DNA from: Proteobacteria bacterium UBA6522
GTDB taxonomy: Bacteria; Pseudomonadota; Gammaproteobacteria; Steroidobacterales; Rariloculaceae
Length of the DNA stretch: 45,469 nucleotides
Direction of reading: 5' to 3'
NCBI GenBank assembly: GCA_002434915.1
Contig: DJLG01000110.1
Location: forward strand, 1,868 to 47,336
Made by a program: the position numbers and the translations under genes. The first letter of the stretch is position 1. Every line of letters starts with the position of its first letter. Shown piece after piece: positions 519 to 45,418 of the stretch. Under the pieces are notes generated by a model, which saw only the letters and a list, made by a program, of their open reading frames with translations, did not search any database and was not told the DNA's origin.

Positions 519-2668
519 TGGCAATAGATCCTCTAAAAACTGTCGGTCATGATATTCCTCGCATTGATGCATATGAACGAGTCACTGGAAAAGCTACATA
601 TAATCGCGATATAAAGCTGCCAGGAATGCTGTATGCAAGGGTTCTGCGCAGCAATGTGCCCCATGCCAACATTATAAGTATTGATACCTCAAGGGCTGAG
701 GCATTGCCCGGGGTTCGGGCCGTCATTACTCATGAAACTCACCAACTGATTTATGGTTCTGGGTCTATCTCAGGAGGACGCCAGTACAACGACGCTGTAA
801 AAGATATTACGAGACGTCTACGACATATGTTTCCAAATCCAGTGAGATTCGTAGGTCAGCCTGTAGCTGCAGTTGCAGCAGTCAATCGTCATGTGGCTGA
901 GGAAGCTATTCAACTTATTGAAGTCTCTTATGAGGAGCTACCATTTGTGCTTGACCCGGAAGAGGCATTACAGCCAGGAGCCCCTGCCATATGGCCTGAT
1001 GGGAACATGGCTCATGATGATCAAAATCGCCAGGAACCTATTGGAAGCCAATCAGGCGATATTGAGGCGGGTTTTCAGCAGGCTGATCATATTTTTGAAG
1101 ATCGTTATACAACAGCGTTTGTGCAGGATGCGCAAATGGAGCCGCGCTCTGCTCTGGCTCACTGGGAGGGAGAAAAGCTTATTTTGCATACACCAACCCA
1201 AGGTGTTTCTAACTGTCGGCATGATAACGCTCGCGACCTTGGAATTGATGATCATCAGATTCAGGTTATTTGTAAATATATGGGTGGTGGTTTTGGCGAT
1301 AAGAATGGTAGCTATTACTTCGATTTAATCGCAGCAATGTTGTCAAAAGAGACTAATGTTCCTGTGATGGTAGAGCTTTCACGCAAGGATGATTGGTTAG
1401 GTACACATGGTCGATGGCATACCGTTCAGGATTACAAGGTTGGTGTAGCTGATGATGGAACAGTAACTGCCATACAAATGAATGCTTTAAGTGGAATGGG
1501 CCCATATCTAAGAAGATCAGGAAACATTGGTGGTATAGATGCTTACGGTTGTCCAAATGTTGATCGTAAGATTTATCCGGTTCATACAAACCGAATGGTC
1601 TCAGGAAATTTTCGTGCCCCTCAATATCCCCAGGGTTATTTTGGCATTCAATCCTTCATGGACAACATAGCATATGAGGTTGGCCTAGATCCTGTTGAGT
1701 TCGCCTTAAAAAATATGCGGAAACCAACAGAAGAAGAGCCTTTCACAAATTATTCTCTCGACCAGTGTATTGAACAGGGCGCTGAAGATTTTGGATGGAG
1801 AGAGAGATGGCGTAGTGAGCCTGGTTCAGACCCGGGAATCATAAAGCGTGGTGCCGGTATGGGGTTTGCTATTTTCAACTCTACGGTATCCCCTAGCAGC
1901 GCAATTGTTCGTGTCGATTCCAGTGGGCAATACACGCTATTTGTTGGCGTAACTGATATTGGACCTGGAGCAAAAACCACGATGTCGCTTATTGCTGCAG
2001 AAGCGCTCGATGTCGGAGTATCTGATGTAGATATTGTGTGGGGTGATACGGATCGCTGCCCATACTCTATTGGTGAGTCAGGGGCCAGAACGACTACAAG
2101 CACAGGTTATGCGGTTATGCAGGCAGCTATTGATCTTAAGGAGCAAATTGCAGCTAAGGGTTTGCCCGCAGATGACGAAGTGCTAATTGCATCGGCAACT
2201 CCAAACCCAAGTGGTGATGGGAGACGCCGCGCGTGTTTTGGTGCACATTTTGTAGAAGTAGAGATAGATACCGAACTTGGACATGTGGGCATTAAAAAAT
2301 ATGTAGCTGTCCATGAGTCAGGTCGAATATTGAATCCTTTGCCAGCTAGGGATCAAATCCGTGGTGCTGTACAACAAGGTATCGGCCAGGCGTTGCATGA
2401 GGATCTTCTTTACGATGTCAGGAACGGACATCCGCTTAATGCGGGTTTTTACGGTGCCCGACACATAACGCATGTAGATGCTCCAGAGATTGAGGTGAGT
2501 TTTATTGAAACTGATGATGGTTTTGGGCCGTTTGGCGGAAAAACAGTGGCGGAAATGGGAATCATCTGTCCGCCATCAGCGGTCGCTAATGCAATATTTA
2601 ATGCTACAGGCATACGAATGAAAGACCTGCCCATCACTCGGGAAAAAATGTTGGAGGCACTGGCATGA
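515..2668 (+). CDS. Molybdopterin-binding large subunit of the xanthine dehydrogenase/aldehyde oxidase family
   Basis: The 717-aa protein has a GGGFGDK motif and overall XDH/CoxL/PaoC-like sequence character. It is translationally coupled on both sides by ATGA overlaps at 515-518 and 2665-2668. Confidence 0.9.
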   Translation: MMAIDPLKTVGHDIPRIDAYERVTGKATYNRDIKLPGMLYARVLRSNVPHANIISIDTSRAEALPGVRAVITHETHQLIYGSGSISGGRQYNDAVKDITRRLRHMFPNPVRFVGQPVAAVAAVNRHVAEEAIQLIEVSYEELPFVLDPEEALQPGAPAIWPDGNMAHDDQNRQEPIGSQSGDIEAGFQQADHIFEDRYTTAFVQDAQMEPRSALAHWEGEKLILHTPTQGVSNCRHDNARDLGIDDHQIQVICKYMGGGFGDKNGSYYFDLIAAMLSKETNVPVMVELSRKDDWLGTHGRWHTVQDYKVGVADDGTVTAIQMNALSGMGPYLRRSGNIGGIDAYGCPNVDRKIYPVHTNRMVSGNFRAPQYPQGYFGIQSFMDNIAYEVGLDPVEFALKNMRKPTEEEPFTNYSLDQCIEQGAEDFGWRERWRSEPGSDPGIIKRGAGMGFAIFNSTVSPSSAIVRVDSSGQYTLFVGVTDIGPGAKTTMSLIAAEALDVGVSDVDIVWGDTDRCPYSIGESGARTTTSTGYAVMQAAIDLKEQIAAKGLPADDEVLIASATPNPSGDGRRRACFGAHFVEVEIDTELGHVGIKKYVAVHESGRILNPLPARDQIRGAVQQGIGQALHEDLLYDVRNGHPLNAGFYGARHITHVDAPEIEVSFIETDDGFGPFGGKTVAEMGIICPPSAVANAIFNATGIRMKDLPITREKMLEALA

Positions 2669-3675
2669 AGACATTTACAAACCAGAACCCGGGCACTGTG
2701 GATGAGGCGATAGGGTTTGTTCGCACTGCAAGAGAAGATGGGCATTCCGTGTCGTTTGCAGGTGGAGGTACAGATCTTTTGCAGTTGGTTAAGGAAAGAG
2801 TTGTCAATCGATCAGGACAAGACGTTCCAGACGTTCTTGTGAACCTCAAATCATTAGAAGGAGTTGATCAGGTAAGTTTCAATAGTCTAGGTGGTGTGGC
2901 TATCGGAGGGCTTACAACTCTTAGTAACCTTGCTAACAATTCTAGAATTTCTGATGACTATAAGGTGCTTGCCGAAGCGGCAGGACAAGTAGGAACACCT
3001 CAGATTCGTAATGTTGGAACACTTGCTGGAAATGTTTGTCAGAGACCTTGGTGCTGGTATTACCGAAATGGATTGCCTTGTTATAAGGCAGGGGGTAACG
3101 AGTGCTTTTCAATAGTAGGCGAAAATCAGCTACATGCGATTTTTGGCGGTGGACCTAGTTTTATTGTGCATCCATCTGATGTTGCTCCTGCACTAGTTGC
3201 CTTGGATGCGTCATTTAATGTTGCTGGCCCATCGGGGAATCGAGTTATTTCTAGTTCTGATTTTTTTGTTTTGCCCCGTGATGATGTCCAACATGAAAAT
3301 GTCTTGTCGGATGAAGAATTTTTGATATCAGTAGATTTGCCGGCACCTTCTAACGGGTTGAAGAGTGCTTACCACAAGGTTATGGACCGGGATGCTTGGA
3401 CTCATGCACTAGTGAGTGCTGCAATAGTTATGGAGATGGATGAAGAGATTTGCAGGTCAGCAAAGATAGTTTTGGGTGGCGTGGCGCCTGTGCCATGGCG
3501 TGTTCCTGCAGCTGAGGAACTGTTGATTGGGAATGTCGTGACGGAAGAGCTAGCGAGATCAGTGGGGGCAGCTGCAGTCGCCGGAGCAAGACCGCTTGCA
3601 AAGAATGCGTACAAAATACCATTAGTCAGAGGTGTAGTGGCACGCACTGTATTGGCGCTTGCCGCTACGGTTTAG
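2665..3675 (+). CDS. FAD-binding medium subunit of the molybdenum hydroxylase (CoxM/PaoB-like)
   Basis: It has the FAGGGTDLL FAD-binding motif, is 336 aa long, and is the third gene of the S-L-M set. Confidence 0.9.
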   Translation: MKTFTNQNPGTVDEAIGFVRTAREDGHSVSFAGGGTDLLQLVKERVVNRSGQDVPDVLVNLKSLEGVDQVSFNSLGGVAIGGLTTLSNLANNSRISDDYKVLAEAAGQVGTPQIRNVGTLAGNVCQRPWCWYYRNGLPCYKAGGNECFSIVGENQLHAIFGGGPSFIVHPSDVAPALVALDASFNVAGPSGNRVISSSDFFVLPRDDVQHENVLSDEEFLISVDLPAPSNGLKSAYHKVMDRDAWTHALVSAAIVMEMDEEICRSAKIVLGGVAPVPWRVPAAEELLIGNVVTEELARSVGAAAVAGARPLAKNAYKIPLVRGVVARTVLALAATV

Positions 3676-4476: not shown

Positions 4477-5499
4477 TTGAAACGATTAATTCTTGTTGCG
4501 TGTTTTATATATATGCCGACCGTAGTTCTATCTCAAAGCAGTGAATTTGTTGGTGAGTGGCTACTTCAATTAGAGAACGATAACAGAATAGGAATGCCGG
4601 CTGTTGGAAGCCTTGTTTTTGAGGAACATGAAGATAGTCTTGCAATTTATATTGATGGTGGGCCTGTAAATTTACTGGAACTGAATGGGAACCAAATCAG
4701 GTTTGATTTTGATTGGTCAGATCTACCTGATCTTATGCATATAAGCATAATGGATGGCACTCTTGAAAATGGTGTGATAGAGGGAATAGCTACTGAAAAT
4801 GGTGAAAATAGAGGAGCCTGGCGAGCGACTCGTATTTTGGAGTCAAACACCTCTGGGATGTCTCCAGCTCCAGTTGATTTAACAGGTATTTGGAGTCGCC
4901 CCTCTATTCTTAGTAAGCATAAGTTTGATTTGACTGAAGCGGGCGAGGCTTCTAACGCCACTTATGATCCAGCTATTGATGATCCAATACTACGTTGTGT
5001 TTCAGATGGTCTCATTCGTATGTCTCATGGTCCGTTTAGCATTGAAGTAGTTGAAAGACAGGGTCGATTATTTGTCCTGCATGAAGATTTAAATGAGATT
5101 CGGCGGATTTATCTTGATGGTAGAGATTTTCCAGAGGCTATTGATGATGCAAGTCTCGCAATGGGTTACTCAATAGGACGTTGGGAGGGATCAACACTGA
5201 TTGTTGAATCTCGTGGATTAAAGCGAACAGTTTGGGATGCTGGAGGAATGCCTATTTCATCCGGGGCGAGGGTAATAGAGCGATGGTACTTAGACTCAAC
5301 AGGTCAATTACACGTGGAATTTAGCATGACCGATCCTGTCAATTATAATCGCCCAGTAAAAATGCATACCCTTCGGCAAAAAAGTCCTGATGATGCAGAG
5401 ATAAGTGAATATTCATGCGATCCGCATGCTTTCTACCGCAGCTTACAATTAGAGGATCGGTTGGACGAGTATTGGGGGCGATCTATAAATCGTCGATAG
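4477..5499 (+). CDS. Exported protein of unknown function, 'L-type' paralog 1
   Basis: A TTG start is preceded by GGAGGGGGG, and a signal peptide is present. Family motifs are DPILRCVSDGLIRM, GRWEGSTLIVES, DPVNYNRPV and a C-terminal YSCDPH. Confidence 0.7.
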   Translation: MKRLILVACFIYMPTVVLSQSSEFVGEWLLQLENDNRIGMPAVGSLVFEEHEDSLAIYIDGGPVNLLELNGNQIRFDFDWSDLPDLMHISIMDGTLENGVIEGIATENGENRGAWRATRILESNTSGMSPAPVDLTGIWSRPSILSKHKFDLTEAGEASNATYDPAIDDPILRCVSDGLIRMSHGPFSIEVVERQGRLFVLHEDLNEIRRIYLDGRDFPEAIDDASLAMGYSIGRWEGSTLIVESRGLKRTVWDAGGMPISSGARVIERWYLDSTGQLHVEFSMTDPVNYNRPVKMHTLRQKSPDDAEISEYSCDPHAFYRSLQLEDRLDEYWGRSINRR

Positions 5500-5540
5500 A
5501 AATAGTAAGCCAGTCGTTTGGTTTATATTTTGGAGGTCAG

Positions 5541-5906
5541 ATGATGAGATTCTATTTTACGGTTTGTGCGATTTTGGTTTGTACTTGTCTAAAATATAAT
5601 TTAGCTGTCGGTCATCATGCGATTTCAGCTAATTATGATGAGAATTCACTTGGAACTATTGAAGGTTCGGTTGTAGAGGTGTTCTGGGCAAACCCTCATG
5701 TTCACTACTATTTAGAAATTACTAATGACCTTGGTAGCATTGACCTGTGGGATATTGAGACAAGTAGTCTAATTGCTCTTTCTCGGGTTGGTTGGACTAA
5801 AGAAACAATTAAGGTTGGGGATACTATAAGAGTTTCTGGCCAACTAGGTCGGAATGGGATAAAACGACTAAATCTTGATAGAGATTCACTGCAAATTCTT
5901 GAATAG
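5541..5906 (+). CDS. Small exported protein, 'S-type' paralog 1 (HH...NPH family; resembles DUF6152 from memory)
   Basis: The ATG at 5541 follows a GGAGG Shine-Dalgarno site, so the track ORF start at 5415 is an upstream extension overlapping the previous gene. The signal peptide ends LAVG|HH, and the WANPH motif is present. Confidence 0.75.
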   Translation: MMRFYFTVCAILVCTCLKYNLAVGHHAISANYDENSLGTIEGSVVEVFWANPHVHYYLEITNDLGSIDLWDIETSSLIALSRVGWTKETIKVGDTIRVSGQLGRNGIKRLNLDRDSLQILE

Positions 5907-6549: not shown

Positions 6550-7545
6550 CTAACTTCCCAAAAGCCCCATCTGTTCAAGTATTTTTCGACCTAGGAAGCC
6601 GTAGTCGCTTGCCAGAGAATCGCGGATCTCGAAGTGGTTGAATCCGGTGCCCACTAGTAGCTCGATCGGCTTACCTGCTGCTTCCATGGCGGTGGCGAAG
6701 TCTCGTCCTTGACGTTGGAACTCTGGTGTCTCATAGGTTCCATAGGCCACAAGCAATGGAGCACTCACTTGATCAATATGACGTTGAGGGCTTAGCACCT
6801 CGATCATTTCATCGGTCAGGTTCAGATAGGAGTTGCGCCATGATAGGCGAACGGGCTCGAGTTCATACATGCCACTTATGCATAGCCCACCCTTTATCAT
6901 GTCTGGTGGTAATCCATAGGTGCCTTGCCAGTCTGTGGTAAGTACGGCAGCTGCAAGATGCCCACCCGAGGAATGCCCTGAGACATAGAGTTGCTCTGGG
7001 TCAGCTCCGAACCGCTCAGCATTCTGGTAAGTCCATGCAGTCGCATCTCGGACCTGTCTTACTAGCGTTGTCAGTCCATCTTCTGCTTCTTCTACTCCAG
7101 AGAAGTCGAGGATGACCATAGTGCCTCCGTTGTTGACCAAGGGCTCGGCCAGGTAAGCGAATTCATTTGCAACGCCATAGCGCCAGGTGCCGCCATGAAT
7201 GAAGACGTTTATCGGACCGCCGTCATTTCCCGTGCGGTAGACATCCAACGTCTCTGTTGGCCCCGATCCATAGGCGAACTTAAGTGGCGGTTCTAGTCGT
7301 GCTCTTGCCAACTCATTATTGAATGCACTCTGCTCCCTAAGCTGATCAATATTTGGGGCATAGATCCTTTGATTGTAGGCGTCATCTAGCTGCGTCTGAT
7401 CCATATCAAGCCATACAGTTGGGTTCATGGATTGTGTCTCTTGCTGGGCCAGTAGTCGTGTGGTTGGGATTGCCATCCCGATGGCTGCGCTAGCTTTAAG
7501 GATGTCCCGTCGACTGAGTCGCTGTTCTATTGGTTTATTTGTCAT
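6550..7545 (-). CDS. TAT-exported alpha/beta-hydrolase (esterase/formamidase-like, fold-3 type)
   Basis: It has an SRRDILKASAAIGMA twin-arginine signal, an HGGTW oxyanion motif and a GHSSGG nucleophile elbow. Confidence 0.8.
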   Translation of the reverse strand: MTNKPIEQRLSRRDILKASAAIGMAIPTTRLLAQQETQSMNPTVWLDMDQTQLDDAYNQRIYAPNIDQLREQSAFNNELARARLEPPLKFAYGSGPTETLDVYRTGNDGGPINVFIHGGTWRYGVANEFAYLAEPLVNNGGTMVILDFSGVEEAEDGLTTLVRQVRDATAWTYQNAERFGADPEQLYVSGHSSGGHLAAAVLTTDWQGTYGLPPDMIKGGLCISGMYELEPVRLSWRNSYLNLTDEMIEVLSPQRHIDQVSAPLLVAYGTYETPEFQRQGRDFATAMEAAGKPIELLVGTGFNHFEIRDSLASDYGFLGRKILEQMGLLGS

Positions 7546-7565
7546 TATTTGAGTTACCTCGCTAT

Positions 7566-8075
7566 CTATCTTGCCCGATAACTATCACGCACATCTTGGG
7601 TATAACCGATAACTGCTGTCGGCTTGATTTCGATCATTGTTCCTGGCCGAGCAAATCCAACTACTGTGATTAATGCACTTGACGGATACCTACCGTCACT
7701 AAAATATTCGCTCCGGATTTCAGTGAATTGGTCGCCATCACGCACATCTTGGATATAAACAGTCATCGTTACAATATCCGAGAGAGCTCCGCCATAATGA
7801 CTGAGCCTTTGTTCGATAAGTCGAAATACTTCCCGTGTTTGTGCTTCAAAGTCCCCCGAAATATCGTTTCCATTTTCATCTGTAAGTGTTGTATGACCGG
7901 CAACCCAAACTGTGGTGCCACCTGTAGTAGCAACCGCCCTTGAAAAAGCACGACTCTCACCGTATTCATCAATTAGGTAATCCTTAGTCACCGGAACAAG
8001 GTCTTGGGATCCTGCTGGCGCTGTCATAGCTAGTAGGATTAAAGGGAATATTTTTTTTAGGATAATTTTGTTCAT
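7566..8075 (-). CDS. RidA/YjgF/L-PSP family protein with a signal peptide
   Basis: The N-terminal signal is ILLAMTAPAGSQD. RidA-like core: VWVAGHT...FEAQTREVFRLIEQRL...DIVTMTVYI...PSSALITV...IEIKPTAV. Confidence 0.8.
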   Translation of the reverse strand: MNKIILKKIFPLILLAMTAPAGSQDLVPVTKDYLIDEYGESRAFSRAVATTGGTTVWVAGHTTLTDENGNDISGDFEAQTREVFRLIEQRLSHYGGALSDIVTMTVYIQDVRDGDQFTEIRSEYFSDGRYPSSALITVVGFARPGTMIEIKPTAVIGYTQDVRDSYRAR

Positions 8076-8148
8076 TATTTATCTTTATCTCGCGAAAGTG
8101 TTTTTACTATAGACACGATAATAACCTTGTTTTTAGTTGGTTGAGTTT

Positions 8149-9012: not shown

Positions 9013-9015
9013 TGG

Positions 9016-9384
9016 TTACTTTCTAGATACTAACTCTGCTATTTCAAATTGGAATTCACCAGATACAATATGCATATCTGCGCCAACCGCACGCCACTTA
9101 ACTATATAAGTACCGGGTGGAATTGAAGGTGTAGAAATAGAAAATTCTTGTTGCGTGGTGGTTGGCATTGCACCAAGGTCAATAACTTTTCCATCGTTAT
9201 CTTCTACAGAAAAAGCAGTGAGCCTGACTTCTGTGGAAAAACCCAATGCGATATTTTCGGGAGCTATAGTTTCTATCGAGTTATCAGCTGGATTAGAGCT
9301 TGACAGTACCGTATGTGCTTGTGCAGGCAGCCCTAGTATTGCCAAAAAAACTGTTATAAATAGCGTCAATATACGTATTTTCAT
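9016..9384 (-). CDS. copC: Periplasmic copper-binding protein CopC
   Basis: The signal peptide ends AQA|HTVL, placing His at mature position 1. The CopC pattern is SSNPADNS...YIVKWRAVGADMHIVSGEFQFEI, with a D-x-H motif. Confidence 0.85.
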   Translation of the reverse strand: MKIRILTLFITVFLAILGLPAQAHTVLSSSNPADNSIETIAPENIALGFSTEVRLTAFSVEDNDGKVIDLGAMPTTTQQEFSISTPSIPPGTYIVKWRAVGADMHIVSGEFQFEIAELVSRK

Positions 9385-11652: not shown

Positions 11653-12036
11653 CTAGGTGATTCTATTTGGGTAAACGTCGTAGTTTTTTCCGCTATAGGT
11701 TACCCGCACAGTTTTAACCTCATAACTCTCAGGATTACTATTACGATTACCACGTATGGATACTTCAGCACCTACAGGTATAGTTTCTTCAGCAAGCCCG
11801 GAACGTCTAGTTCTTGATGGTGGACCCATAGTGATATCCCAGACTTGTCCACTTTCGTCTTCGATCTGCATATGTGCGTGTGGACCTGACATGCTGAGAG
11901 CCCGATGCAATGTTCCGGATAACTCGAATTGATCGTTAGTTTGTCCGCTCCAGCCGTGGTGTGCCGAGACCTGAGTTGCCACTAATCCAAGTGTTACGAA
12001 GATTGTAGCAATACTGACAGTTATTTTGTTAAGCAT
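11653..12036 (-). CDS. Small exported protein, 'S-type' paralog 2 (the most divergent copy)
   Basis: The ATG at 12036 follows AAGGA, whereas the track start at 12051 is a TTG with no SD. The signal peptide ends VSA|HH. The motif SGPHAHM replaces NPH. Confidence 0.7.
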   Translation of the reverse strand: MLNKITVSIATIFVTLGLVATQVSAHHGWSGQTNDQFELSGTLHRALSMSGPHAHMQIEDESGQVWDITMGPPSRTRRSGLAEETIPVGAEVSIRGNRNSNPESYEVKTVRVTYSGKNYDVYPNRIT

Positions 12037-12134
12037 AATCTGTTCCTTCAAACGGGATTTAGCGCCTCACCAGTAGGCCAACAATAGCATATCTCTAGTA
12101 TATAAGGCGTAGCTTCTTAACAATTTTTCGCCTC

Positions 12135-12737: not shown

Positions 12738-14018
12738 TCATTGGATTTCGGCAAGTTGTTGAAGCAGGGCACCCCTAGCGCTGTTAGCAGGCACGAATCG
12801 CTGCACTCTAAAAGAATCAACCTCCCCTGTGTAAATATTTCCTTGCGAGTCGACCGCTATCATGTGAAGACCAAAGAACTCACCTCCACCCTCACCCATG
12901 TGACCCAGTTCTCCAACAACCTCACCATTTTCTCGATTTAGAAACCAGATTTTGTTATTCATGCGATCAGAGATATAAAGAAAGCGTTGTTCAGGATCAG
13001 AGGAAAATGCTACGCCACCAGTTGAACCTCCTCCTCCGGTACTGGGCGCTAGTATAAATTCATCTAGGAATTCTCCTTGCTTCGTAGTTACATGAATTCG
13101 ATTAGCATTTCTGTCTGCGGCATAGACTAGCCCATCATTCGAGATATTTAATGTTAGGTGACCTGCAAAGTCCTTGGGCATTGGACCATTTGGTGTGTAC
13201 TCATGGTCCGCATCATCTATGCTGATCATCTCTAATGATTTTCCATAAGCCCCCCATCCTCTCTTGAATTCAAAACTATCAAGATCAAAAACTAATACAC
13301 GCCCACCTAAGTAGTTATCAGCTATGTATACCTCTCTGTCCGTCTCCACTATCCTAATTTCTTCAAGTCCACCAACAATTACTGGAGTGTCTGGGGGATA
13401 TTTTTCACGAAAAACTTTAGCAGCAGCTGTTCTGGCTGCTATTTCTATCGGATCATCTGGACTATTTGGCATAAAAACTGAGGCATGTTCGAGAGTCCCT
13501 TTGCCTGGGGTAAATTCGACTGGAGGAAGTAGACCTACAGGGCCACCATTTTCTCTTTCTGCTGTGCGTGCTATTTCGGCAATCACCATTCCTGTTTGAG
13601 GGTCATACTTGCGAACCGTATCCTGCCCAATGTAAACAAATCCATTCTCATCAACATCCATCCCGTGTCCCTGTGGAGCATTGAAAGAACCAATAACATT
13701 TCCGATCTGATCTAGATGAATCATTGAAGGGGGACGAATACAACATTGTGCAATTGGTGGTGAAACTTCATTTAGTAGTTCCATATCGGATAAGTCGTTT
13801 GGTCGATTGAGGACCCAGATATTATTGTTGGCGTCAATAGCAAGTCCGGTTATACCGCCTACTTTCCAATTATTTGGAAGTGTCTGGGGCCATGTTGGAT
13901 CAGCATAGTACTTTTGTGGTTCTTGCGTATGAGCTACAGTGCTAAGAAATAATAATATCGATATAACATTGGTGATAAGAGGGAATACGGCTATTAATAC
14001 CGGTTTATTTTTAGACAT
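12738..14018 (-). CDS. Exported NHL-repeat beta-propeller protein
   Basis: The ATG at 14018 follows GGGGGAG, and an N-terminal signal/anchor is present. NHL-like repeats include GLAIDANNNIWVLNR, HGMDVDENGFVYIG, NISNDGLVYAADRNANRIHV and HMIAVDSQGNIYTGEV..RVQRF. Confidence 0.75.
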   Translation of the reverse strand: MSKNKPVLIAVFPLITNVISILLFLSTVAHTQEPQKYYADPTWPQTLPNNWKVGGITGLAIDANNNIWVLNRPNDLSDMELLNEVSPPIAQCCIRPPSMIHLDQIGNVIGSFNAPQGHGMDVDENGFVYIGQDTVRKYDPQTGMVIAEIARTAERENGGPVGLLPPVEFTPGKGTLEHASVFMPNSPDDPIEIAARTAAAKVFREKYPPDTPVIVGGLEEIRIVETDREVYIADNYLGGRVLVFDLDSFEFKRGWGAYGKSLEMISIDDADHEYTPNGPMPKDFAGHLTLNISNDGLVYAADRNANRIHVTTKQGEFLDEFILAPSTGGGGSTGGVAFSSDPEQRFLYISDRMNNKIWFLNRENGEVVGELGHMGEGGGEFFGLHMIAVDSQGNIYTGEVDSFRVQRFVPANSARGALLQQLAEIQ

Positions 14019-14165
14019 AGTAATCTCCCCCTGAGTCAGATGTATTGTCAATGCTGATAATACTCTGCAATATGTTATATCAGCATAATAATTTTAATGT
14101 CTTCTGATAAGGAAGCTAATGCTTTATAGGGTTCGGTTTGAATAAGCCGTGATAAGGAGCTATGT

Positions 14166-15041
14166 ATGCAGGTTAGGGTCGTTATAGTTGCCATAACATG
14201 GGGTATTTTAAATATATCTCAGTCCGCATATGCGCAGGTTACACCAGAGGTCCAGTCTGTTCTCTATGAGGCGGCAGACACGCTAGGGTTACTTCGAACA
14301 CCTAGAGAAGTGGACCGTGTCATAACCATGATTTATTCAGGTTCAGGAACTAGGGTCATAGAGGGTGAAACTTGTGTCATGGATAGTTATCGAGCTAGTT
14401 TGCGCTATGCAATACCTGAAATTGTTCATCCTTTCCCGGTACCGGGTATGCGTGTTGATTTCACTTGTGTTGTTAGTGATGCCGAGCCACAGCGTTATGT
14501 GCAAGTTGTGGCAGGAGGATATGCTTGGGATGAAGATGAGCCAGGCGGCAACTCAGAGTCTATGCCTGAGACATTGCGTGAAAGATTGTTACAGATATGG
14601 CTTGTTCCACAGGGCCTAGTAAAGGCTGCTGTTGAAGCTGGGGAATTAGCTACCGCATCTTCTAATAGCGATGGAAATCCTGTGCTTACTTTTCCCTTGC
14701 CTGCTCCATTAGATGACACGATTGTGCAAGCCACATTTGACCCAGAAGTGTTTCTTTATCATACGATGCCAAACGGTACTAGGCGTGAATTTGGTCACCG
14801 GCTTGTACATGTTGAAACCGAGTTTGACGGTACCTTAGTAGAGGTGGCGTATGCTGACTACCAGGATTGGAATGAGTCTGACTATAAGGCAGATGTTTTG
14901 TTGCCGGGCCATATTATACAAACGGTTGATGGGGCTACGGTTATGGATTTAAATCTAAGTCTGAGCAACACATATAACCCTTATGTGGTTATGCCGTTGC
15001 CGGCAAACATTGCTGCGGCAGGAACTGCATTCTCAGAGTAA
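14166..15041 (+). CDS. Exported hypothetical protein (291 aa), first gene of an operon with the S3 and L2 paralogs
   Basis: It has an AAGGAG SD and a signal peptide ending SAYA|Q. I recognise no family. Confidence 0.6.
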   Translation: MQVRVVIVAITWGILNISQSAYAQVTPEVQSVLYEAADTLGLLRTPREVDRVITMIYSGSGTRVIEGETCVMDSYRASLRYAIPEIVHPFPVPGMRVDFTCVVSDAEPQRYVQVVAGGYAWDEDEPGGNSESMPETLRERLLQIWLVPQGLVKAAVEAGELATASSNSDGNPVLTFPLPAPLDDTIVQATFDPEVFLYHTMPNGTRREFGHRLVHVETEFDGTLVEVAYADYQDWNESDYKADVLLPGHIIQTVDGATVMDLNLSLSNTYNPYVVMPLPANIAAAGTAFSE

Positions 15042-15104: not shown

Positions 15105-15515
15105 ATGCATCATAAATTTCGCTTAGTTGGTTTGGTGGGTGCTATGTTGGGTTTTCTTTTAGCGGCAACTCCAATAACTGCGCATCATGCAATCCAGGCT
15201 CAGTTTGATCAGGATAGGCTTGCTACTATCACTGGTGTGATGAGACGTGTGATGTGGATAAACCCACATGTGCGTTGGTTTTTAGATGTTGAGGATGAAA
15301 ATGGTGATGTAACCTCCTGGAATATCTCTGGGTCAGGACCTGGCGCGTTTCGTCGTGTAGGTATAAGTGGCCGCGATGTGTTCGTAACAGGAGAGACCTA
15401 CACTGCTACGATCGCTTTAGCAAAGGATGGGTCAGATTTTGGGTATATTGTCTCATTTATTCTTCCCGATGGCAGGAAGATTGATTTATGGCATCAATAC
15501 CAGTCCGAGGGTTAA
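15105..15515 (+). CDS. Small exported protein, 'S-type' paralog 3
   Basis: The signal peptide ends ITA|HH, followed by AIQAQFD, WINPH and DVEDENGDVTSWNISG. Confidence 0.75.
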   Translation: MHHKFRLVGLVGAMLGFLLAATPITAHHAIQAQFDQDRLATITGVMRRVMWINPHVRWFLDVEDENGDVTSWNISGSGPGAFRRVGISGRDVFVTGETYTATIALAKDGSDFGYIVSFILPDGRKIDLWHQYQSEG

Positions 15516-15580: not shown

Positions 15581-16552
15581 ATGAAAAATAGAACTATAAC
15601 CATGTCTTTTTTGCGTTACAGCTTAATGATCTTTAGTGCACTTGGTGTTACCACTTCTTTTGTAGCTTGTACATCTGGCCAAGATTCTGCCTCCTCCTCT
15701 GATATTGCTGTAAGTGACCAAGAACAAATGTCTGAAGTTGATGCTTCATCGACGCCCCGAACTGCCAATGGCAGGCCTGATTTAAATGGCCGATGGGGTA
15801 GTAGTGGTGGTGGAGGTAGTGTTATGGCAATTGAGCCTGACGGTACTGAATACAACTTTGATACATTTGCTGATTATCAGGCAGCTGTTAGTGAAGGTAG
15901 TGTGAGCCTTTCGGCTAGTATTATTGGGCGTAGACCTAACTATCGACATGGTAATAATGTTTATGGTGAGCGAGATGATGGGATGACTAGACGTTATTTC
16001 GCAAATCCACCTCTCTATAAAGGGGAGTTCTGGAATCGAATTGAATACTTGGATATCAATGGAAATATGGAGGATATGACTTTTATCTGTATGCCAGCTG
16101 GCGTACCGCGCATGGGACCACCAATTCGCATCTTACAGTCTGAATCAGATGTCGTTTTTCTTTATCAGCAACGTAATACTTGGCGTGTTATACCAACTGA
16201 TGGGCGTGATCATGATCCGTTGAATTCTCAAGACCAAACCTTCATGGGGGATTCTGTCGGACGTTGGGAAGGAGATACCCTTATTGTTGATGTTGTAGGC
16301 TTCAATGACCTTACTTGGCTTGGGTGGCCTGGTTGGTATCATACTAATGAAATGCGTGTTGAGGAACGCTTTACTCGTTTAGATGACACGCTTCTTTATG
16401 AGGTTACGGTGCATGATCCTGAAGTTTTAATTGAGCCATGGGAAATGGATCCGCGAGTTTTGAATCTAAACCCCAGTACAGCTACATACCTTGAGGACCC
16501 GCCTTGCTTAGATTTTGATTCTGCACATATGGTGACGAGGGAGCGTGGTTAA
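15581..16552 (+). CDS. Exported lipoprotein of unknown function, 'L-type' paralog 2
   Basis: There is a lipobox (FVACTS). Family motifs are GRPDLNGRWG, FICMPAGVPRM, GRWEGDTLIVDVVGFND, HDPEVLIEPW and PPCLDF. Confidence 0.7.
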   Translation: MKNRTITMSFLRYSLMIFSALGVTTSFVACTSGQDSASSSDIAVSDQEQMSEVDASSTPRTANGRPDLNGRWGSSGGGGSVMAIEPDGTEYNFDTFADYQAAVSEGSVSLSASIIGRRPNYRHGNNVYGERDDGMTRRYFANPPLYKGEFWNRIEYLDINGNMEDMTFICMPAGVPRMGPPIRILQSESDVVFLYQQRNTWRVIPTDGRDHDPLNSQDQTFMGDSVGRWEGDTLIVDVVGFNDLTWLGWPGWYHTNEMRVEERFTRLDDTLLYEVTVHDPEVLIEPWEMDPRVLNLNPSTATYLEDPPCLDFDSAHMVTRERG

Positions 16553-18358: not shown

Positions 18359-19429
18359 TTGCAAGTACTACTAGGTAATAAGGCTAAGAGAGCAGTTTGG
18401 TCAAGCATTATATTGTTTTTCTTTTTGCCAATAAGTCTTCAGGCTCATCACTCTAGAGCAGAATTTTCTGGAGGGGATTTTCGAGAAATTGAGGGAGAAG
18501 TTGTTCGTGTGTCATGGAGAAACCCTCATGTTACTTTCAATATTAGAACAGTTTCATCAGATGGTTCTGAAGAAATGTGGGAGCTTGAGGCTGGGGATGT
18601 TGCAACTCTAGCTAGGCGTGGTTTGGACAACGGTTACATTAATGTAGGTGATATGATTACAGTGGCGGGACCAATATCGACCCGGCGCGATAACTTTTTG
18701 GCTATTGCCCATGCTTTATTAAGTAATGGTGTTGAGATGATTTTTGGAAACCGTGAACCACGATGGTCGGATCAATATATGGGTGGTGGAAGTGCCACAG
18801 TTTCTGCAAGCGAAGAGATAGAAGCTGATCTAGAAGATATTTTCCGGGTTTGGATTCGAATGGGCCCGACCCCTTACGAGGTAATTGAGCAGCCACCGCT
18901 CACTTCTGAGGCAAGGGCTATTTGGCAGAATTATGATTTTTTCCATGATGATCCTGTACTTAATTGCAATTTGCCTGGTATGCCGCGTGTCATAACTATG
19001 GCTGGTTCTCGGCCTATAGAATTTGAAAAGCATGGCAACGATATCTTGTTGCATTCAGAAAACTTTAACCTGACTAGGGTTATTCATATGGAAGAAGATG
19101 AATTGGATGGCGACATAGAATCCACACCATTAGGATATTCTCGGGGGCACTGGAATGGAGATACTTTAATTATTACTACCACGCATATTAGTTGGCCATT
19201 ATTTGAGTTGCCCCCCTTGTATGGTATTCCTCAAAGCGAGGAAATGAAGATTATTGAGCAATTTACCCTTATAGATAATGAGTTAGTGTATGACTTTTGG
19301 GCAAATGATCCTGTGAATTTCACTCAGCCCATAGAAGAGCAGAGATACTTCGTTTGGCGGTGGGATCCGGAAGTGGAAATTAGAGCTCATGAGTGCGAGA
19401 TTACTTTAAGACCAGGTTCTGAGGAGTGA
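18359..19429 (+). CDS. Natural fusion of an S-type domain (N-terminal) and an L-type domain (C-terminal)
   Basis: The TTG start follows GGTGGAG. The signal peptide ends LQA|HH, followed by WRNPH (S motifs). Next come DPVLNCNLPGMPRV, GHWNGDTLIITT, NDPVNFTQP and AHECE (L motifs). Confidence 0.75.
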   Translation: MQVLLGNKAKRAVWSSIILFFFLPISLQAHHSRAEFSGGDFREIEGEVVRVSWRNPHVTFNIRTVSSDGSEEMWELEAGDVATLARRGLDNGYINVGDMITVAGPISTRRDNFLAIAHALLSNGVEMIFGNREPRWSDQYMGGGSATVSASEEIEADLEDIFRVWIRMGPTPYEVIEQPPLTSEARAIWQNYDFFHDDPVLNCNLPGMPRVITMAGSRPIEFEKHGNDILLHSENFNLTRVIHMEEDELDGDIESTPLGYSRGHWNGDTLIITTTHISWPLFELPPLYGIPQSEEMKIIEQFTLIDNELVYDFWANDPVNFTQPIEEQRYFVWRWDPEVEIRAHECEITLRPGSEE

Positions 19430-43474: not shown

Positions 43475-43867
43475 TTAATTTGGTGAATTAGAAAATAGTG
43501 GTCTGCCATCGGGAAGCGTTGCTGCAGAAAGACTTGCGGTAGGAGTATTATTACGAGCTTGCCAACCTTGAATTTGTAGAATCGTTCCTACTGGTAGGTC
43601 TCCAGGACGCCAACCGAGGCGAATCAAATTATTAGCTGCTCGGGTTTCCAATGCCCAGTTAATAATTTCCCCATTGGAATTTTCAACATCAACATAGATC
43701 CATGCATGAGGATTTGCCCATTTCATTTCAGTCACAGTTCCCGTAAAACTAATAGGCTTATCTCTATCAAACTCAGCGGCAAACGCATGATGAGAAAACG
43801 CGTTATTAGTAAAACTAGTCAGAGAAAAGGTAAGAAGCAAGGTTGTTGTCTTAAAAAAACTAATCAT
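43475..43867 (-). CDS. Small exported protein, 'S-type' paralog 5
   Basis: The signal peptide ends AFS|HH, followed by AFAAEFD, WANPH and DVENSNGEIINWALE. It starts 6 nt after the L-L gene stop. Confidence 0.75.
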   Translation of the reverse strand: MISFFKTTTLLLTFSLTSFTNNAFSHHAFAAEFDRDKPISFTGTVTEMKWANPHAWIYVDVENSNGEIINWALETRAANNLIRLGWRPGDLPVGTILQIQGWQARNNTPTASLSAATLPDGRPLFSNSPN

Positions 43868-43873
43868 TTTCTT

Positions 43874-45418
43874 TTACTCAATATTTTGATTTTGACGATA
43901 CTCATCCTGCACATCCTTTAAATGTTGAAGGTCTGCATTGTCTTCTAGGCAAGCCACTTCCAGTAGCTCTTCATCTTCTTGGTTAAACGGCATTTCTATA
44001 GTCCATGGGCGTGTATATGGAATTGGGTCAGATACGGTAGCTCGATAGATAATTTGGTTTTCATCTACTGGCGTAAATGTTTCCACGACAGTCTGCATAT
44101 GACTAACTACATCACCTACTTCATTAAGCCATGATTTTCCATTAAAGTTTTTTGATTCAACAATGAGCGTATCTTCTTCCCAATAACCGATAGAGTCACC
44201 TTGCCATAGGCGTATTGTATCCGGTAGAGAATGTTCGCCATTTAAAGCAATTCTTCGCCATGACATGCGTTCATGTAGAACAACTATATAGCCAGGGGGT
44301 TGTAGTATAAAAAATGGTGCTGGAACATAGTGTGAGCGCGGAACACCTGCTACAAAACAGTGTGCGGTAGGATCATCATATCCTCTATGTGGTAACTGAC
44401 GGTCTATTCTTTCGGATCTAGCCCATGTCTGATAGGGCAGAATCCCATCTATAGGATCAATGACTTGTCCTCTGCTCGGTGGGAGGAGGATCTCTCTCTC
44501 ATGTTCTTCTAATCCGTAATTTGCACCACCCGCATCAGCCATATAGTAACCCCCGATATTAGGTGTGCCATCTGAGAGCCGAGAAATCTCTTCAGTTACT
44601 GTTGGGAGCGGGATATTTTGACCAGCATTAGGGTCAAATGGTTCATTATTTGGAGGAATTAAAGCTGGATACCAGGTATTTTCATCTCTCTCAAAAGCAC
44701 CATTTTCCTCTTCTTTTTCTGCTTGGCACTGGTATTCAAGGATGCCATTCATGTGTTTTTGACGTTGTAGCTCTAATTGAATAGTCCAAGGGCGTGTAAA
44801 TACATTCTGATCTTCAATAGTCGCTTCATACTCGATAGTGTCTTTGTCGATCAGTCGATAACGTTCAACAACATGGATTTCATTACTATGAAAGTTTCCT
44901 GCTGCATCGAGCCATGTCTTATCGTTTTGATCTATAACTTCAACAACTAGAACATCTCCTTCCCAATGACCACGTGAGTTTCCCATCCAAGACTCAATTC
45001 CAGCATAGAGAGGGGGAGACCCATTTGTATAAATTAATCTATAGACTTGTTGCCACTCAAAAGTAATTGCAATGTGGTTAGTGGTTTGGAATATTTGGAA
45101 TGGAGATTCCATTGCCATAATTCTTGGCACACCTGGCAAGTAACAATTATTAAGTGGATCCATGGAAGCACGATTTTCAAAATTTTGAATCTTCTGCTCA
45201 GCTGCCCATGGTTGATAGGGGATTGTTCCACCATCAACGACACTTATGCCAGCTGGCATATCATGTCTAGCAACATGATCTTCAAGGTCAAAAGACGCGC
45301 GGTTAACTGGACGCCATATTCCTTGCAAATCAGGTTTTCCATCTGCATCACGAGGCAAGTTCTGCCCTGATACTGTCCCAGTAACTAATACTAGAAAAAT
45401 AAATAAATATGGTGACAC
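43874..45418 (-). CDS. Exported protein with two tandem L-type domains (L4a and L4b)
   Basis: The GTG start follows AGGA, and a signal peptide is present. The motif set occurs twice. First: GKPDLQGIW / NCYLPGVPRI / GHWEGDVLVVEV / TRPWTI / YQCQAE. Second: GTPNIGGYY / HCFVAGVPRS / GYWEEDTLIVES / TRPWTI / VACLED. Confidence 0.75.
   Translation of the reverse strand: MSPYLFIFLVLVTGTVSGQNLPRDADGKPDLQGIWRPVNRASFDLEDHVARHDMPAGISVVDGGTIPYQPWAAEQKIQNFENRASMDPLNNCYLPGVPRIMAMESPFQIFQTTNHIAITFEWQQVYRLIYTNGSPPLYAGIESWMGNSRGHWEGDVLVVEVIDQNDKTWLDAAGNFHSNEIHVVERYRLIDKDTIEYEATIEDQNVFTRPWTIQLELQRQKHMNGILEYQCQAEKEEENGAFERDENTWYPALIPPNNEPFDPNAGQNIPLPTVTEEISRLSDGTPNIGGYYMADAGGANYGLEEHEREILLPPSRGQVIDPIDGILPYQTWARSERIDRQLPHRGYDDPTAHCFVAGVPRSHYVPAPFFILQPPGYIVVLHERMSWRRIALNGEHSLPDTIRLWQGDSIGYWEEDTLIVESKNFNGKSWLNEVGDVVSHMQTVVETFTPVDENQIIYRATVSDPIPYTRPWTIEMPFNQEDEELLEVACLEDNADLQHLKDVQDEYRQNQNIE

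What the first reader, a model, noticed from the sequence alone, without database searches (positions are those of the whole stretch)
4477..5906. Expanded exported two-protein module of unknown function (L-type plus S-type), copy 1 of several
Two protein families recur together across the window.

S-type proteins are about 120-135 aa:
- 5541..5906(+)
- 11653..12036(-)
- 15105..15515(+)
- residues ~30-130 of 18359..19429(+)
- 43475..43867(-)

L-type domains are about 200-230 aa:
- 4477..5499(+)
- 15581..16552(+)
- the C-terminal part of 18359..19429(+)
- two repeats in 43874..45418(-)

Shared L motifs, read directly from the translations:
- G-x-P-D-L-x-G-x-W near the N-terminus.
- D-P-x3-C-x-x-(P/A/D)-G-x-(P/I)-R.
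- G-(R/H/Y)-W-(E/N)-(G/E)-(D/S)-x-L-(I/V)-(I/V).
- D-P-x5-6-P-(W/V).
- A second invariant Cys near the C-terminus (E-x-x-C). The two Cys could form a periplasmic disulfide.

Gene order varies (L then S, S then L, fused, and LL then S), but adjacency is kept. That pattern is typical of obligate partners. Five S domains and five L domains in 45 kb is a strong lineage-specific expansion. I cannot assign a function to either family. S resembles what I recall as DUF6152, and L resembles nothing I can name.
Basis: seen in the sequence. Interest (0 to 1): 0.85.

Follow-up and report, generated by a model that had tools for sequence, protein, structure and literature searches.

The report
Exported OB-fold and barrel protein pair
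The window carries five copies of a secreted protein pair that stay adjacent, fuse and diversify together in thousands of mostly uncultured bacteria: a small DUF6152 protein whose processed end is always His-His, and an unclassified barrel protein. They probably form an untested metal-plus-ligand complex.

Summary
Five ORFs carry Pfam DUF6152 (S). Four ORFs carry five copies of a second domain (L) that matches no Pfam or NCBIfam model. The L copies are clearly homologous to each other.

L is a very large unmodelled family: 17,309 representatives at 50% identity. AlphaFold plus Foldseek give S an OB-fold and L a ten-stranded FABP/CRBP-like calycin barrel.

S and L are true partners:
- They are adjacent or fused in most sampled loci, in Acidobacteriota, Gamma- and Alphaproteobacteria.
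- More than 120 clusters are S-L fusions.
- Their divergences mirror each other (Mantel r = 0.79).

A third orphan family, X (window 14166-15041), joins one subfamily. Elsewhere X is fused to L or to a metallo-beta-lactamase.

Every intact S (113 of 114 unique; the 114th is a truncated fragment) starts with His-His directly after an AXA signal-peptidase site. A (N/G/S)PH motif follows about 28 residues later. This is the sequence signature of an amino-terminal, histidine-brace-type metal site, here on a fold not known to carry one.

Best reading (inferred, not shown): a periplasmic metal-binding OB subunit docked on a ligand-holding barrel, in many substrate-specific paralog pairs.

The "lineage-specific expansion" is not supported, because the paralogs are old subfamilies. 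Function remains untested.

The parts
4477..5499 (+). L1: exported L-type protein (340 aa). It has a signal peptide, an extra ~100-aa N-terminal beta-rich domain, then the L barrel domain (about aa 147-317).
   Evidence: No Pfam or NCBIfam hit. BLASTP to the other L domains gives E 1e-10 to 4e-15. L profile E 2e-29.
5541..5906 (+). S1: DUF6152 protein. The signal peptide ends ...LAVG, then HH; NPH follows at +28.
   Evidence: PF19649, 69.1 bits. Motif context shown.
11653..12051 (-). S2: a divergent DUF6152 (GPH instead of NPH) with no L immediately adjacent. It is the last gene of the NHL propeller / RidA-like / S2 run, which diverges from X-S3-L2.
   Evidence: PF19649, 34.4 bits. ORF layout. 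Neighbour families.
14166..15041 (+). X: third orphan exported family (291 aa), directly upstream of S3-L2.
   Evidence: No Pfam or NCBIfam hit. 63% and 47% identical to the gene in the same position in L001 and L003. 44 X-domain ORFs in the loci, including X-L and X-MBL fusions.
15105..15515 (+). S3: DUF6152. The signal peptide ends ...PITA, then HH.
   Evidence: PF19649, 62.6 bits. 66-70% identical to S in L001 and L003.
15581..16552 (+). L2: L-type protein (323 aa, or 316 aa from the next start). Possible lipobox FVAC.
   Evidence: 754 homologues, none with a Pfam domain or a name other than "hypothetical". The AlphaFold model's C-terminal half is a confident beta barrel with FABP/CRBP Foldseek hits.
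18359..19429 (+). F: natural S-L fusion (356 aa). Order: signal peptide, His30-His31, OB-fold S domain (about aa 28-135), linker, L barrel (about aa 160-350).
   Evidence: PF19649 on aa 28-104. L profile E 7e-95 on aa 153-349. More than 120 full-length homologue clusters. AlphaFold pLDDT 87.6, pTM 0.82. Foldseek gives OB-fold and FABP-like hits.
43475..43867 (-). S5: DUF6152. The signal peptide ends ...NAFS, then HH. It lies 6 nt downstream of LL.
   Evidence: PF19649, 94.3 bits.
43874..45418 (-). LL: exported protein with two tandem L domains (about aa 73-236 and 347-490).
   Evidence: Two L-profile domains, E 1.5e-22 and 1.8e-12. BLASTP to L2 gives 1e-23 and 1e-16. Two-repeat architectures are common among the top family representatives.
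12738..14051 (-). NHL beta-propeller protein, transcribed divergently from X-S3-L2. It is a recurrent neighbour, and its membership of the system is uncertain.
   Evidence: Pfam NHL. It clusters with neighbours of S/L modules in four other loci.

Best explanation
S and L are the two subunits of a periplasmic (Sec-exported) complex, sometimes made as one chain and in one subfamily joined by X.

- **S** is a small OB-fold protein. After signal-peptide removal its first two residues are always His-His. Together with the invariant (N/G/S)PH histidine, and probably the conserved Asp at +8, they form an amino-terminal, histidine-brace-type site for a divalent metal. On chemical grounds copper is the most likely metal.
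- **L** is a disulfide-stapled, FABP-like ten-stranded barrel with a helical lid and invariant Arg/Glu/Asp/Trp. It holds a small organic ligand.
- **The pair** brings the metal centre and the ligand pocket together. The many co-diversified S-L pairs in one genome each serve a different ligand in periplasmic nutrient capture or oxidation, next to whichever periplasmic redox enzyme, hydrolase or transporter handles that compound.

**Shown here:** export signals, folds, partnership, invariant motifs.

**Inferred:** metal binding, which metal, ligand binding, and any catalysis.
For: **Partnership**
- S-L or X-S-L order recurs in Gammaproteobacteria, Rhodospirillaceae, Acidobacteriota and cultured sphingomonads.
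- In 80 L-centred genome loci, 93 of 98 S genes and 96 of 152 L genes have the partner within 300 bp on the same strand or fused.
- 4 of 4 S-centred loci have L immediately downstream.
- More than 120 S-L fusion clusters exist.
- The fusion model has pLDDT 87.6 and pTM 0.82, which is consistent with the two domains packing in a defined way. No PAE or coordinates were available to check this.
- Mantel r = 0.79 (p = 0.001) between S and L distances over 105 pairs. For paralogous pairs within one locus r = 0.67.

**Folds**
- S resembles OB domains: the LysRS N-domain, Rim1 SSB (TM 0.60) and CST.
- L resembles CRABP/CRBP/FABP: TM 0.5-0.6, probability 1.0, seen in two independent models.

**Metal site**
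- 113 of 114 unique S domains have HH directly after an AXA-type cleavage site. Residue -1 is A in 107, S in 5 and G in 2.
- The His of (N/G/S)PH lies at +28 in 90 of 114.
- In fusions S is always the N-terminal domain: 61 of 61 in A2 and 9 of 10 in the loci. There are no L-S or X-S fusions, as expected if the free amino terminus is needed.
- A cleaved signal peptide exposing His1 plus a second His defines the copper histidine brace, and any N-terminal His will chelate Cu(II) preferentially (PMC10952591).

**Ligand diversity and redox context**
- Five pairs occur in this window and up to about 14 S/L genes in 20 kb elsewhere.
- Co-directional flanking genes are heterogeneous. They are led by c-type cytochromes (Cytochrome_CBB3 5, CytoC_RC 4 and Cytochrom_C 3 members; the counts may overlap) and PQQ/GSDH dehydrogenases (4 + 3), out of 148. 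MBL, M20 peptidases and TonB receptors also occur.
- S-less L genes in Bryobacterales sit one gene away from a haem-c protein with PHM/DBH-like HH...H and HxH...M motifs.
Against: - No metal, ligand or activity has been measured for any member.
- No coordinates were available, so I could not check that His1, His2 and the NPH His are close in space. I also could not check that the barrel has a cavity, that the N-terminus faces the barrel, or that the two Cys are within disulfide distance.
- L has no invariant His, Met or free Cys that would complete a metal site.
- The Foldseek matches to FABPs are fold-level only (E about 4e-3, about 10% identity).
- About a third of L genes lack an adjacent S.
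- The flanking genes show no single obligatory partner.
- There is no metal-responsive riboswitch or Fur/Zur box near the window copies.
- The window's own copC/copD pair is not adjacent to any S-L pair.
Confidence: 0.35

Rival explanations
1. Pure metal trafficking. S would be a CopC/YcnI-like periplasmic chaperone that scavenges Cu (or Zn or Ni) with its N-terminal His-His. It would hand the metal to a membrane importer or to nearby metalloenzymes. L would be an adaptor.
For: - Invariant mature His-His plus NPH.
- Most non-LPMO histidine-brace proteins are copper carriers.
- Tandem DUF6644 four-helix membrane proteins sit directly next to the module in 10 loci. They give weak sub-threshold hits to CopD (2 of 11, E 0.004) and DUF2214 (4 of 11).
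- TonB receptors lie next to S-L in L006 and in Croceibacterium.
- Many neighbours are metalloenzymes: MBL, M20 peptidases and PQQ dehydrogenases.
Against: - Metal chaperones are normally single-copy. Here five pairs occur in 45 kb, and S and L co-diversify as cognate pairs.
- The window has no DUF6644.
- hhalign of DUF6644 against the window's CopD is not significant.
- S does not match the CopC model.
- There is no Fur/Zur box or metal riboswitch.
Confidence: 0.2
2. Metal-independent ligand shuttle. L would be a periplasmic carrier for hydrophobic or amphipathic nutrients, moving them between outer-membrane receptors and inner-membrane transporters. S would be a docking or lid subunit whose histidines serve recognition or pH sensing.
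For: - The FABP-like fold is a classic lipid and retinoid carrier.
- Neighbours include TonB receptors, MFS transporters and catabolic enzymes: TauD, hydrolases, amidohydrolase and SnoaL.
- The paralog diversity fits many ligands.
Against: - It does not explain why His-His must be the very first residues in 113 of 114 sequences, nor why S is never placed after another domain.
- Invariant Arg/Glu/Asp across all L subfamilies suggests common chemistry rather than only varied binding.
Confidence: 0.2
3. Cofactor or haem handling. The pair would bind a tetrapyrrole or a quinone cofactor such as PQQ, with bis-His ligation or an Arg-lined pocket. It would serve the neighbouring cytochromes c and quinoprotein dehydrogenases.
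For: - c-type cytochromes and PQQ/GSDH dehydrogenases are the commonest co-directional neighbours.
- OB-fold (CcmE) and ten-strand barrel (nitrobindin) haem binders exist. This rests on my own knowledge and was not tested here.
Against: - These neighbours account for at most about 19 of 148 flanking genes.
- Most modules, including all five in the window, have no adjacent cytochrome or PQQ enzyme.
- The N-terminal position of the histidines is not a feature of known haem ligation.
Confidence: 0.1
4. The adjacency is incidental, and S and L have unrelated functions.
For: Some L genes lack S, and S2 lacks an adjacent L.
Against: - Fusions occur in more than 120 clusters.
- The adjacency is conserved across phyla.
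- S and L divergences mirror each other.
Confidence: 0.01

Closest known systems
Pfam PF19649 DUF6152 (uncharacterised family)
   Same: S is a member by score. The NPH motif is present. NCBI already labels S and the S-L fusions "DUF6152 family protein".
   Different: The family has no assigned fold, function or partner. No paper in the searchable library mentions it. The OB-fold, the invariant mature His-His and the linkage to L are added here.
CopC/PcoC with CopD, and YcnI with YcnJ (periplasmic or extracytoplasmic Cu(II) histidine-brace carriers with a partner)
   Same: Small all-beta exported proteins. The mature N-terminal His, a further His and an Asp are conserved. They are encoded next to a partner. 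In 10 loci the module abuts DUF6644 membrane proteins with faint CopD-like similarity.
   Different: The fold differs: OB versus the beta-sandwich folds of CopC and YcnI (the latter from my own knowledge). S does not match the CopC model. The main partner is a soluble FABP-like barrel. The system is massively paralogous.
Lytic polysaccharide monooxygenases and X325/Bim1 (histidine-brace copper proteins)
   Same: A signal peptide is cleaved to expose His1. Cytochrome-type redox partners lie nearby in some loci.
   Different: There is no sequence or fold similarity and no polysaccharide context. No activity is known.
FABP / CRBP / CRABP intracellular lipid-binding proteins (calycin superfamily)
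   Same: They are the best structural matches to L. They share ten antiparallel strands with a helical insert after the first strand, and a G-x-W first strand is present in most L domains.
   Different: L is bacterial and exported, with two invariant Cys and about 10% identity. It does not match the Pfam lipocalin/FABP models. It has extra N-terminal segments and works with an OB-fold partner.
ZinT/YodA (periplasmic calycin-like zinc-binding protein with a His-rich mature N-terminus; from my own knowledge, not tested here)
   Same: It combines a calycin-type barrel with histidines right after the signal peptide in a periplasmic metal-handling role.
   Different: ZinT is a single chain, and its metal ligands are His residues of the barrel. 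L has no invariant His, and the His-His sits on a separate OB domain.
CusF and YgiW/BOF periplasmic OB-fold proteins (from my own knowledge)
   Same: Small periplasmic OB-folds. CusF binds Cu(I)/Ag(I).
   Different: They lack the N-terminal His-His/NPH motif and the barrel partner. No sequence similarity was detected.

Membership tests
Pfam DUF6152 (PF19649) | Score above the curated gathering threshold (27 bits) | tested here: met
   All five S domains score 34.4-94.3 bits.
Pfam DUF6152 (PF19649) | Conserved NPH motif | tested here: met
   An (N/G/S)PH motif is present in all 110 unique S domains examined. S2 has GPH.
Histidine-brace metalloproteins | A cleaved signal peptide leaves histidine as residue 1 of the mature protein | tested here: met
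   By sequence prediction only. HH follows an AXA-type site in 113 of 114 unique S domains. Residue -1 is A in 107, S in 5 and G in 2, preceded by a hydrophobic h-region. Cleavage was not shown experimentally.
Histidine-brace metalloproteins | A second histidine supplies the third nitrogen in a T-shaped Cu site | not testable with these tools
   The candidates, His2 and the (N/G/S)PH histidine, are invariant. No coordinates were available to measure distances.
Histidine-brace metalloproteins | Copper is bound | not testable with these tools
   Needs ICP-MS or EPR on processed protein.
Histidine-brace metalloproteins | Belongs to one of the known carrier families (LPMO AA9-17, PmoB/AmoB, X325/Bim1, CopC, YcnI, PmoF1) | tested here: not met
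   S matches only DUF6152 in Pfam, not CopC or the others. Its model is an OB-fold. The review's list contains no OB-fold carrier.
OB-fold | Five-strand closed beta barrel with a helix between strands 3 and 4 | tested here: met
   The model has strands at 41-53, 57-65, 71-80, a helix at 81-86, then strands at 99-106 and 113-128. Foldseek hits the LysRS N-domain (E 3e-4), Rim1 SSB (TM 0.60, probability 1.0) and a CST OB domain.
Calycin / FABP-like barrel | Ten-strand antiparallel barrel with a helical insert after strand A | tested here: met
   Two independent models (L2, and the L part of F) both retrieve CRBP, CRABP and FABP at TM 0.5-0.6 (target-normalised) and probability 0.97-1.0. This is fold resemblance only.
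Calycin / FABP-like barrel | Sequence membership of the Pfam lipocalin/FABP families | tested here: not met
   No Pfam or NCBIfam hit at E<=1. No PDB sequence hit for L profiles.
CopC/CopD system | CopC-domain protein encoded with a CopD membrane protein | tested here: not met
   S lacks a CopC match. The window's real copC/copD pair (8149-9384) is separate from the S-L pairs. DUF6644 neighbours elsewhere show only sub-threshold CopD similarity.

The most novel reading that the evidence does not exclude
DUF6152 would be a previously unrecognised histidine-brace copper centre built on an OB-fold. Clamped onto a FABP-like substrate barrel, it would form a new, very widespread class of periplasmic copper oxygenase or peroxygenase. 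It would act on small organic molecules, with each S-L paralog pair tuned to a different substrate and reduced by neighbouring c-type cytochromes.
Probability: 0.12. Interest if true: 0.9.

Novelty: categorically new. Interest (0 to 1): 0.68.

Why it matters
L is one of the larger protein families still without any model or name: about 17,000 clusters at 50% identity. It has a fixed partner, DUF6152, with at least 6,500 clusters at 90% identity. Both are abundant in soil Acidobacteriota and marine Proteobacteria that are mostly uncultured.

If the His-His end of S is a metal site, this adds a new fold and a new two-subunit architecture to the short list of amino-terminal (histidine-brace) metal centres. 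That list is of interest for C-H oxidation chemistry and for copper trafficking.

If it is instead a ligand shuttle, it is a new periplasmic carrier type that could explain how these bacteria move hydrophobic substrates.

Either way, the natural fusions give directly testable material. So do the cultured carriers: Croceibacterium atlanticum 26DY36 and Novosphingobium humi KACC 19094.

Tried and rejected
- **PDB sequence searches.** L profiles, an S protein and the X profile found nothing. The best hits had E 0.11-1 and were unrelated.
- **X versus L.** hhalign found no relationship, so X is a separate family.
- **DUF6644 versus the window's CopD.** hhalign was not significant. Only sub-threshold Pfam hits link them, so I kept this as a lead only.
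- **Cross-subfamily alignments as scan queries.** The L (A3) and S (A7) alignments were too divergent for the pattern-based locus scans. The genome scan was therefore done with the L2-type alignment, which biases the 80 loci toward that subfamily and its relatives.
- **Regulatory signals.** Rfam at gathering thresholds found nothing in the window plus five loci. Fur-box and Zur-box consensus searches gave no match with up to 3 mismatches. The promoter and terminator scan was no better than shuffles.
- **Literature.** There are no papers mentioning DUF6152, and none combining "histidine brace" with "OB-fold".
- **"Quinoprotein relay" metallohydrolase.** The MBL half of X-MBL scores only 27-39 bits against cut-offs of 280-300. 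I rejected membership.
- **PHM-like assignment.** For the haem-c neighbour of S-less L genes, this rests on motifs and one weak Pfam hit. It is not counted as evidence of membership.
- **One apparent L...S ORF.** L069 has a 743-aa ORF with L before S. I judged it a merged-ORF artefact, because the S part has its own signal-peptide-like stretch.
Full report
**1. Checking the observation**

Pfam places all five S domains in DUF6152 (PF19649) above the 27-bit gathering score:

| S domain | Bits |
|---|---|
| 5541-5906(+) | 69.1 |
| 11653-12051(-) | 34.4 |
| 15105-15515(+) | 62.6 |
| N-terminal third of 18359-19429(+) | 56.6 |
| 43475-43867(-) | 94.3 |

The four L-bearing ORFs have no Pfam or NCBIfam match even at E<=1. 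These are 4477-5499, 15581-16552, 18359-19429 and 43874-45418.

The L domains are nevertheless homologous:
- All-against-all BLASTP links them with 41-90 bits.
- Profiles built from outside homologues recover all five domains at E 1e-9 to 1e-95.
- Those profiles recover nothing else among all window ORFs of 60 aa or more.

The invariant positions are the two Cys, the Gly of C-x3-G-x-P-R, an Arg, G-x3-G-x-W-x4-L, a Glu, and the Asp of D-P. The N-terminal G-x-P-D-L-x-G-x-W is clear in only three of the five domains.

**2. How big the families are and who carries them**

- **L2 as query:** 754 homologues. None has a Pfam domain, and the only name given is "hypothetical protein".
- **L-core profile against 1.84 billion representatives (50% clusters):** 17,309 hits at E<=1e-3 and 10,518 at E<=1e-10. 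These include many two-repeat (LL-type) and S-L architectures.
- **S profile:** at least 6,506 clusters at 90% identity, a capped count.
- **Window proteins:** they occur in marine Gammaproteobacteria MAGs and Tara Oceans assemblies. L is labelled "hypothetical protein" and S "DUF6152 family protein".
- **Species-representative genome scan:** 587 confirmed L stretches. The best 80 loci are all MAGs, from Acidobacteriota (Vicinamibacterales, Bryobacterales, Terriglobia), Gammaproteobacteria, Rhodospirillaceae and one Acidimicrobiia.
- **Cultured carriers:** Croceibacterium atlanticum 26DY36 (plasmid: DUF6152, DUF6152, L, TonB receptor, MarR) and Novosphingobium humi KACC 19094 (an S-L pair).
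- **Literature:** no paper in the searchable library mentions DUF6152.

**3. S and L are partners**

The gene order X-S-L of window 14166-16552 is reproduced in a 4.39-Mb chromosome-sized contig (L001/L002). It is also reproduced in unrelated metagenomic contigs whose closest named relatives are Acidobacteria (L003-L005). The X, S and L orthologues there are 47-70% identical to the window's.

In a third lineage the order is TonB receptor, two small proteins, L, S, S.

I scanned every ORF of the 80 genome loci with my own S, L and X profiles:
- 93 of 98 S genes have L fused or within 300 bp on the same strand.
- 96 of 152 L genes have S in the same way.
- 10 more L genes sit at a locus edge.
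- S lies upstream of L in 71 cases and downstream in 23.

Those loci were L-centred, so I also looked up four S proteins picked from a profile search. In all four, L lies immediately downstream.

The S-L fusion represented by window 18359-19429 has more than 120 full-length homologue clusters.

Pairwise divergence of S correlates with that of its adjacent L. Mantel r is 0.79 (p = 0.001) over 105 pairs. For paralogous pairs within a single locus r is 0.67, which species phylogeny cannot explain. The pairs therefore duplicate and diverge as units.

Partnership is not universal. 46 L genes have no S next to them, some as extra copies in S-L-L arrays and some as S-less subfamilies.

**4. A third member**

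Window 14166-15041 (X, 291 aa, exported) has no Pfam, NCBIfam or PDB relative and is unrelated to L.

Its ~260-aa domain occurs in 44 ORFs of the loci:
- alone next to S-L;
- fused as X-L (525-621 aa), with S then encoded separately downstream;
- fused as X-metallo-beta-lactamase (500-627 aa).

**5. Folds**

With a 61-sequence alignment, AlphaFold2 models the fusion protein at mean pLDDT 87.6 and pTM 0.82. Foldseek against the PDB splits it in two:
- **N-terminal S domain:** matches OB-folds, namely the LysRS anticodon-binding domain (E 3e-4), Rim1 SSB (TM 0.60) and a CST OB domain.
- **C-terminal L domain:** matches CRABP, CRBP, FABP and bile-acid-binding protein (TM 0.5-0.6, probability 1.0).

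An independent, weaker model of L2 (pLDDT 68.5, confident over the barrel) gives the same FABP/CRBP hits.

The topology of L is one strand carrying G-x-W, then helices carrying the first invariant Cys and the PG-x-PR motif, then about ten strands. This is the FABP arrangement. It is fold resemblance at about 10% identity, not demonstrated homology.

**6. The His-His end of S**

In 114 unique S domains from the window and all loci, every one except a truncated, decayed copy has HH directly after a typical signal-peptidase site:
- Residue -1 is A in 107, S in 5 and G in 2.
- Residue -3 is A, V or L in 97.
- A hydrophobic stretch lies upstream.
- The histidine of (N/G/S)PH lies 28 residues after His1 in 90 of 114.
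- An Asp at +8 is nearly invariant.

In every fusion architecture seen, S is the N-terminal domain: 61 of 61 in A2 and 9 of 10 in the loci. The exception looks like two merged ORFs. No L-S or X-S fusion occurs. Where X and L fuse, S keeps its own gene and signal peptide.

That is what one expects if the free amino terminus of His1 is functionally required.

According to the histidine-brace review (PMC10952591):
- The brace is formed by the NH2 and side chain of an N-terminal His plus a further His.
- All known carriers are secreted proteins unmasked by signal-peptide cleavage.
- An N-terminal His will preferentially chelate Cu(II).
- No OB-fold carrier is listed.

Metal binding by S is therefore a well-grounded inference, but still an inference. 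I had no coordinates to measure distances.

**7. Genomic context**

No single further partner is obligatory. Among 148 co-directional flanking ORFs the commonest families are:

| Family | Members |
|---|---|
| c-type cytochromes (Cytochrome_CBB3 5, CytoC_RC 4, Cytochrom_C 3; counts may overlap) | up to 12 |
| PQQ (4) and GSDH (3) dehydrogenases | 7 |
| Metallo-beta-lactamases | 4 |
| DUF6644 membrane proteins | 4 |
| M20 peptidases | 4 |
| TonB receptors | 3 |

Within 4 kb of the modules, a di-haem CytoC_RC-like protein recurs in 10 loci. Tandem DUF6644 genes recur in 10 loci and TonB receptors in 15.

In the window the neighbours are catabolic or transport genes:
- a Mo-hydroxylase operon and a rhodanese around copy 1;
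- an NHL propeller and a RidA-like gene beside copy 2;
- DUF3500 and a hydrolase after the fusion;
- TauD and an MFS transporter after LL-S5.

No riboswitch or Fur/Zur box was found.

**8. Interpretation**

Shown here: two (sometimes three) exported families that function together, an OB-fold with an invariant mature His-His/NPH signature, and a disulfide-candidate FABP-like barrel.

Most likely, at moderate-to-low confidence, S is a metal-binding subunit docked on a ligand-holding barrel. Copper is the most probable metal. The many co-diversified pairs would serve different ligands in periplasmic capture or oxidation.

The rivals are:
- a pure metal-trafficking role like CopC/CopD;
- a metal-independent ligand shuttle;
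- cofactor or haem handling.

The heavy paralogy and pairwise co-diversification argue against a simple metal-homeostasis role. The strict N-terminal His-His argues against a purely metal-free shuttle.

**9. Novelty**

S is catalogued only as a DUF. L and X are not modelled at all in the libraries available. The S-L(-X) architecture matches no characterised system, and the defining-feature tests for CopC, known histidine-brace families and sequence-level FABP/lipocalin membership fail.

I therefore rate it as categorically new in kind, with the caveat that its function is still inferred.

The window paralogs share 23-39% identity with each other but 59-76% with orthologues in other phyla.

Noticed in passing
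window 14166-15041 (+): A third orphan exported family (X) sits directly upstream of S3-L2. It is conserved in the same position in distant MAGs. Elsewhere it is fused to L or to a metallo-beta-lactamase domain.
   Followed up: yes
window 11653-14051 (-): The "solo" S2 is the last gene of a co-directional run: NHL beta-propeller (12738-14051), RidA-like (12135-12665), then S2. The run is transcribed divergently from X-S3-L2. The NHL propeller recurs beside S/L modules in four other loci.
   Followed up: partly
window 8149-9384 (-): A bona fide copC (9016-9384) and copD (8149-9012) pair lies 2.2 kb from S1. It is separated from S1 by a rhodanese, an esterase and a RidA-like gene, and is not adjacent to any S-L pair.
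   Followed up: partly
window 72-3675 (+); L091 8693-10901; L092 1-341: A CoxS/CoxL/CoxM-type molybdenum hydroxylase operon lies directly upstream of copy 1. MoCoBD genes also lie near S-L pairs in two unrelated S-centred loci.
   Followed up: no
window 4540-4850 (aa ~22-125 of L1): L1 carries an extra ~100-aa beta-rich N-terminal domain. It begins G-E-W and ends G-A-W-R-A-T-R. It matches no family and none of the other L proteins.
   Followed up: no
window 15581-15700: The L2 signal peptide ends F-V-A-C-T-S-G, a possible lipoprotein lipobox. The Cys is kept only in the closest homologues, so lipidation is not a family feature.
   Followed up: partly
window 41210-43359 (-) and 19522-22795 (+): LL-S5 is followed co-directionally by a TauD-family dioxygenase and an MFS transporter, whose genes overlap by 4 nt. 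The S-L fusion is followed by DUF3500 and an Abhydrolase_10 protein. An Abhydrolase_10 gene also precedes X-S-L in L011.
   Followed up: partly
L046/L047/L050/L052 ~6950-11430; L069 12123-13505: S-less L genes in Bryobacterales sit in a run: a haem-c (CxxCH) protein with invariant HH...H and P-H-M-H...W-x-E-M motifs, then an M20 peptidase, then L, then a SnoaL-like protein. The motifs resemble the two copper sites of PHM/DBH monooxygenases. Only one weak Pfam hit supports this (E 0.006).
   Followed up: partly
L014, L019, L020, L023, L027, L041, L044, L045, L060 (e.g. L019 11157-12142): Tandem pairs of DUF6644 four-helix membrane proteins (invariant His, D-x-R-L-L-G, G-R) lie directly next to X/S/L genes in Acidobacteriota. 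They give faint sub-threshold hits to CopD and DUF2214. None is present in the window.
   Followed up: partly
L093 (Croceibacterium atlanticum plasmid NZ_CP011453.2) 5850-10717: A cultured strain carries DUF6152, DUF6152, L (annotated as hypothetical), a TonB-dependent receptor and MarR. The run is flanked on both sides by large G8/CEMIP beta-helix proteins. This gives a genetic handle for experiments.
   Followed up: partly
L092 5658-5963: A truncated S copy lacks the signal peptide and the His-His end and has NPQ instead of NPH. It sits next to two intact S genes and is apparently a decaying paralog.
   Followed up: no
window 26266-31976 (+): A conserved-looking cluster unrelated to the finding: two CMAS-type methyltransferases, DUF2878, DUF1295, an amine-oxidase-like flavoprotein and DUF1365 (a cyclopropane-fatty-acid-synthase-type cluster).
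   Followed up: no
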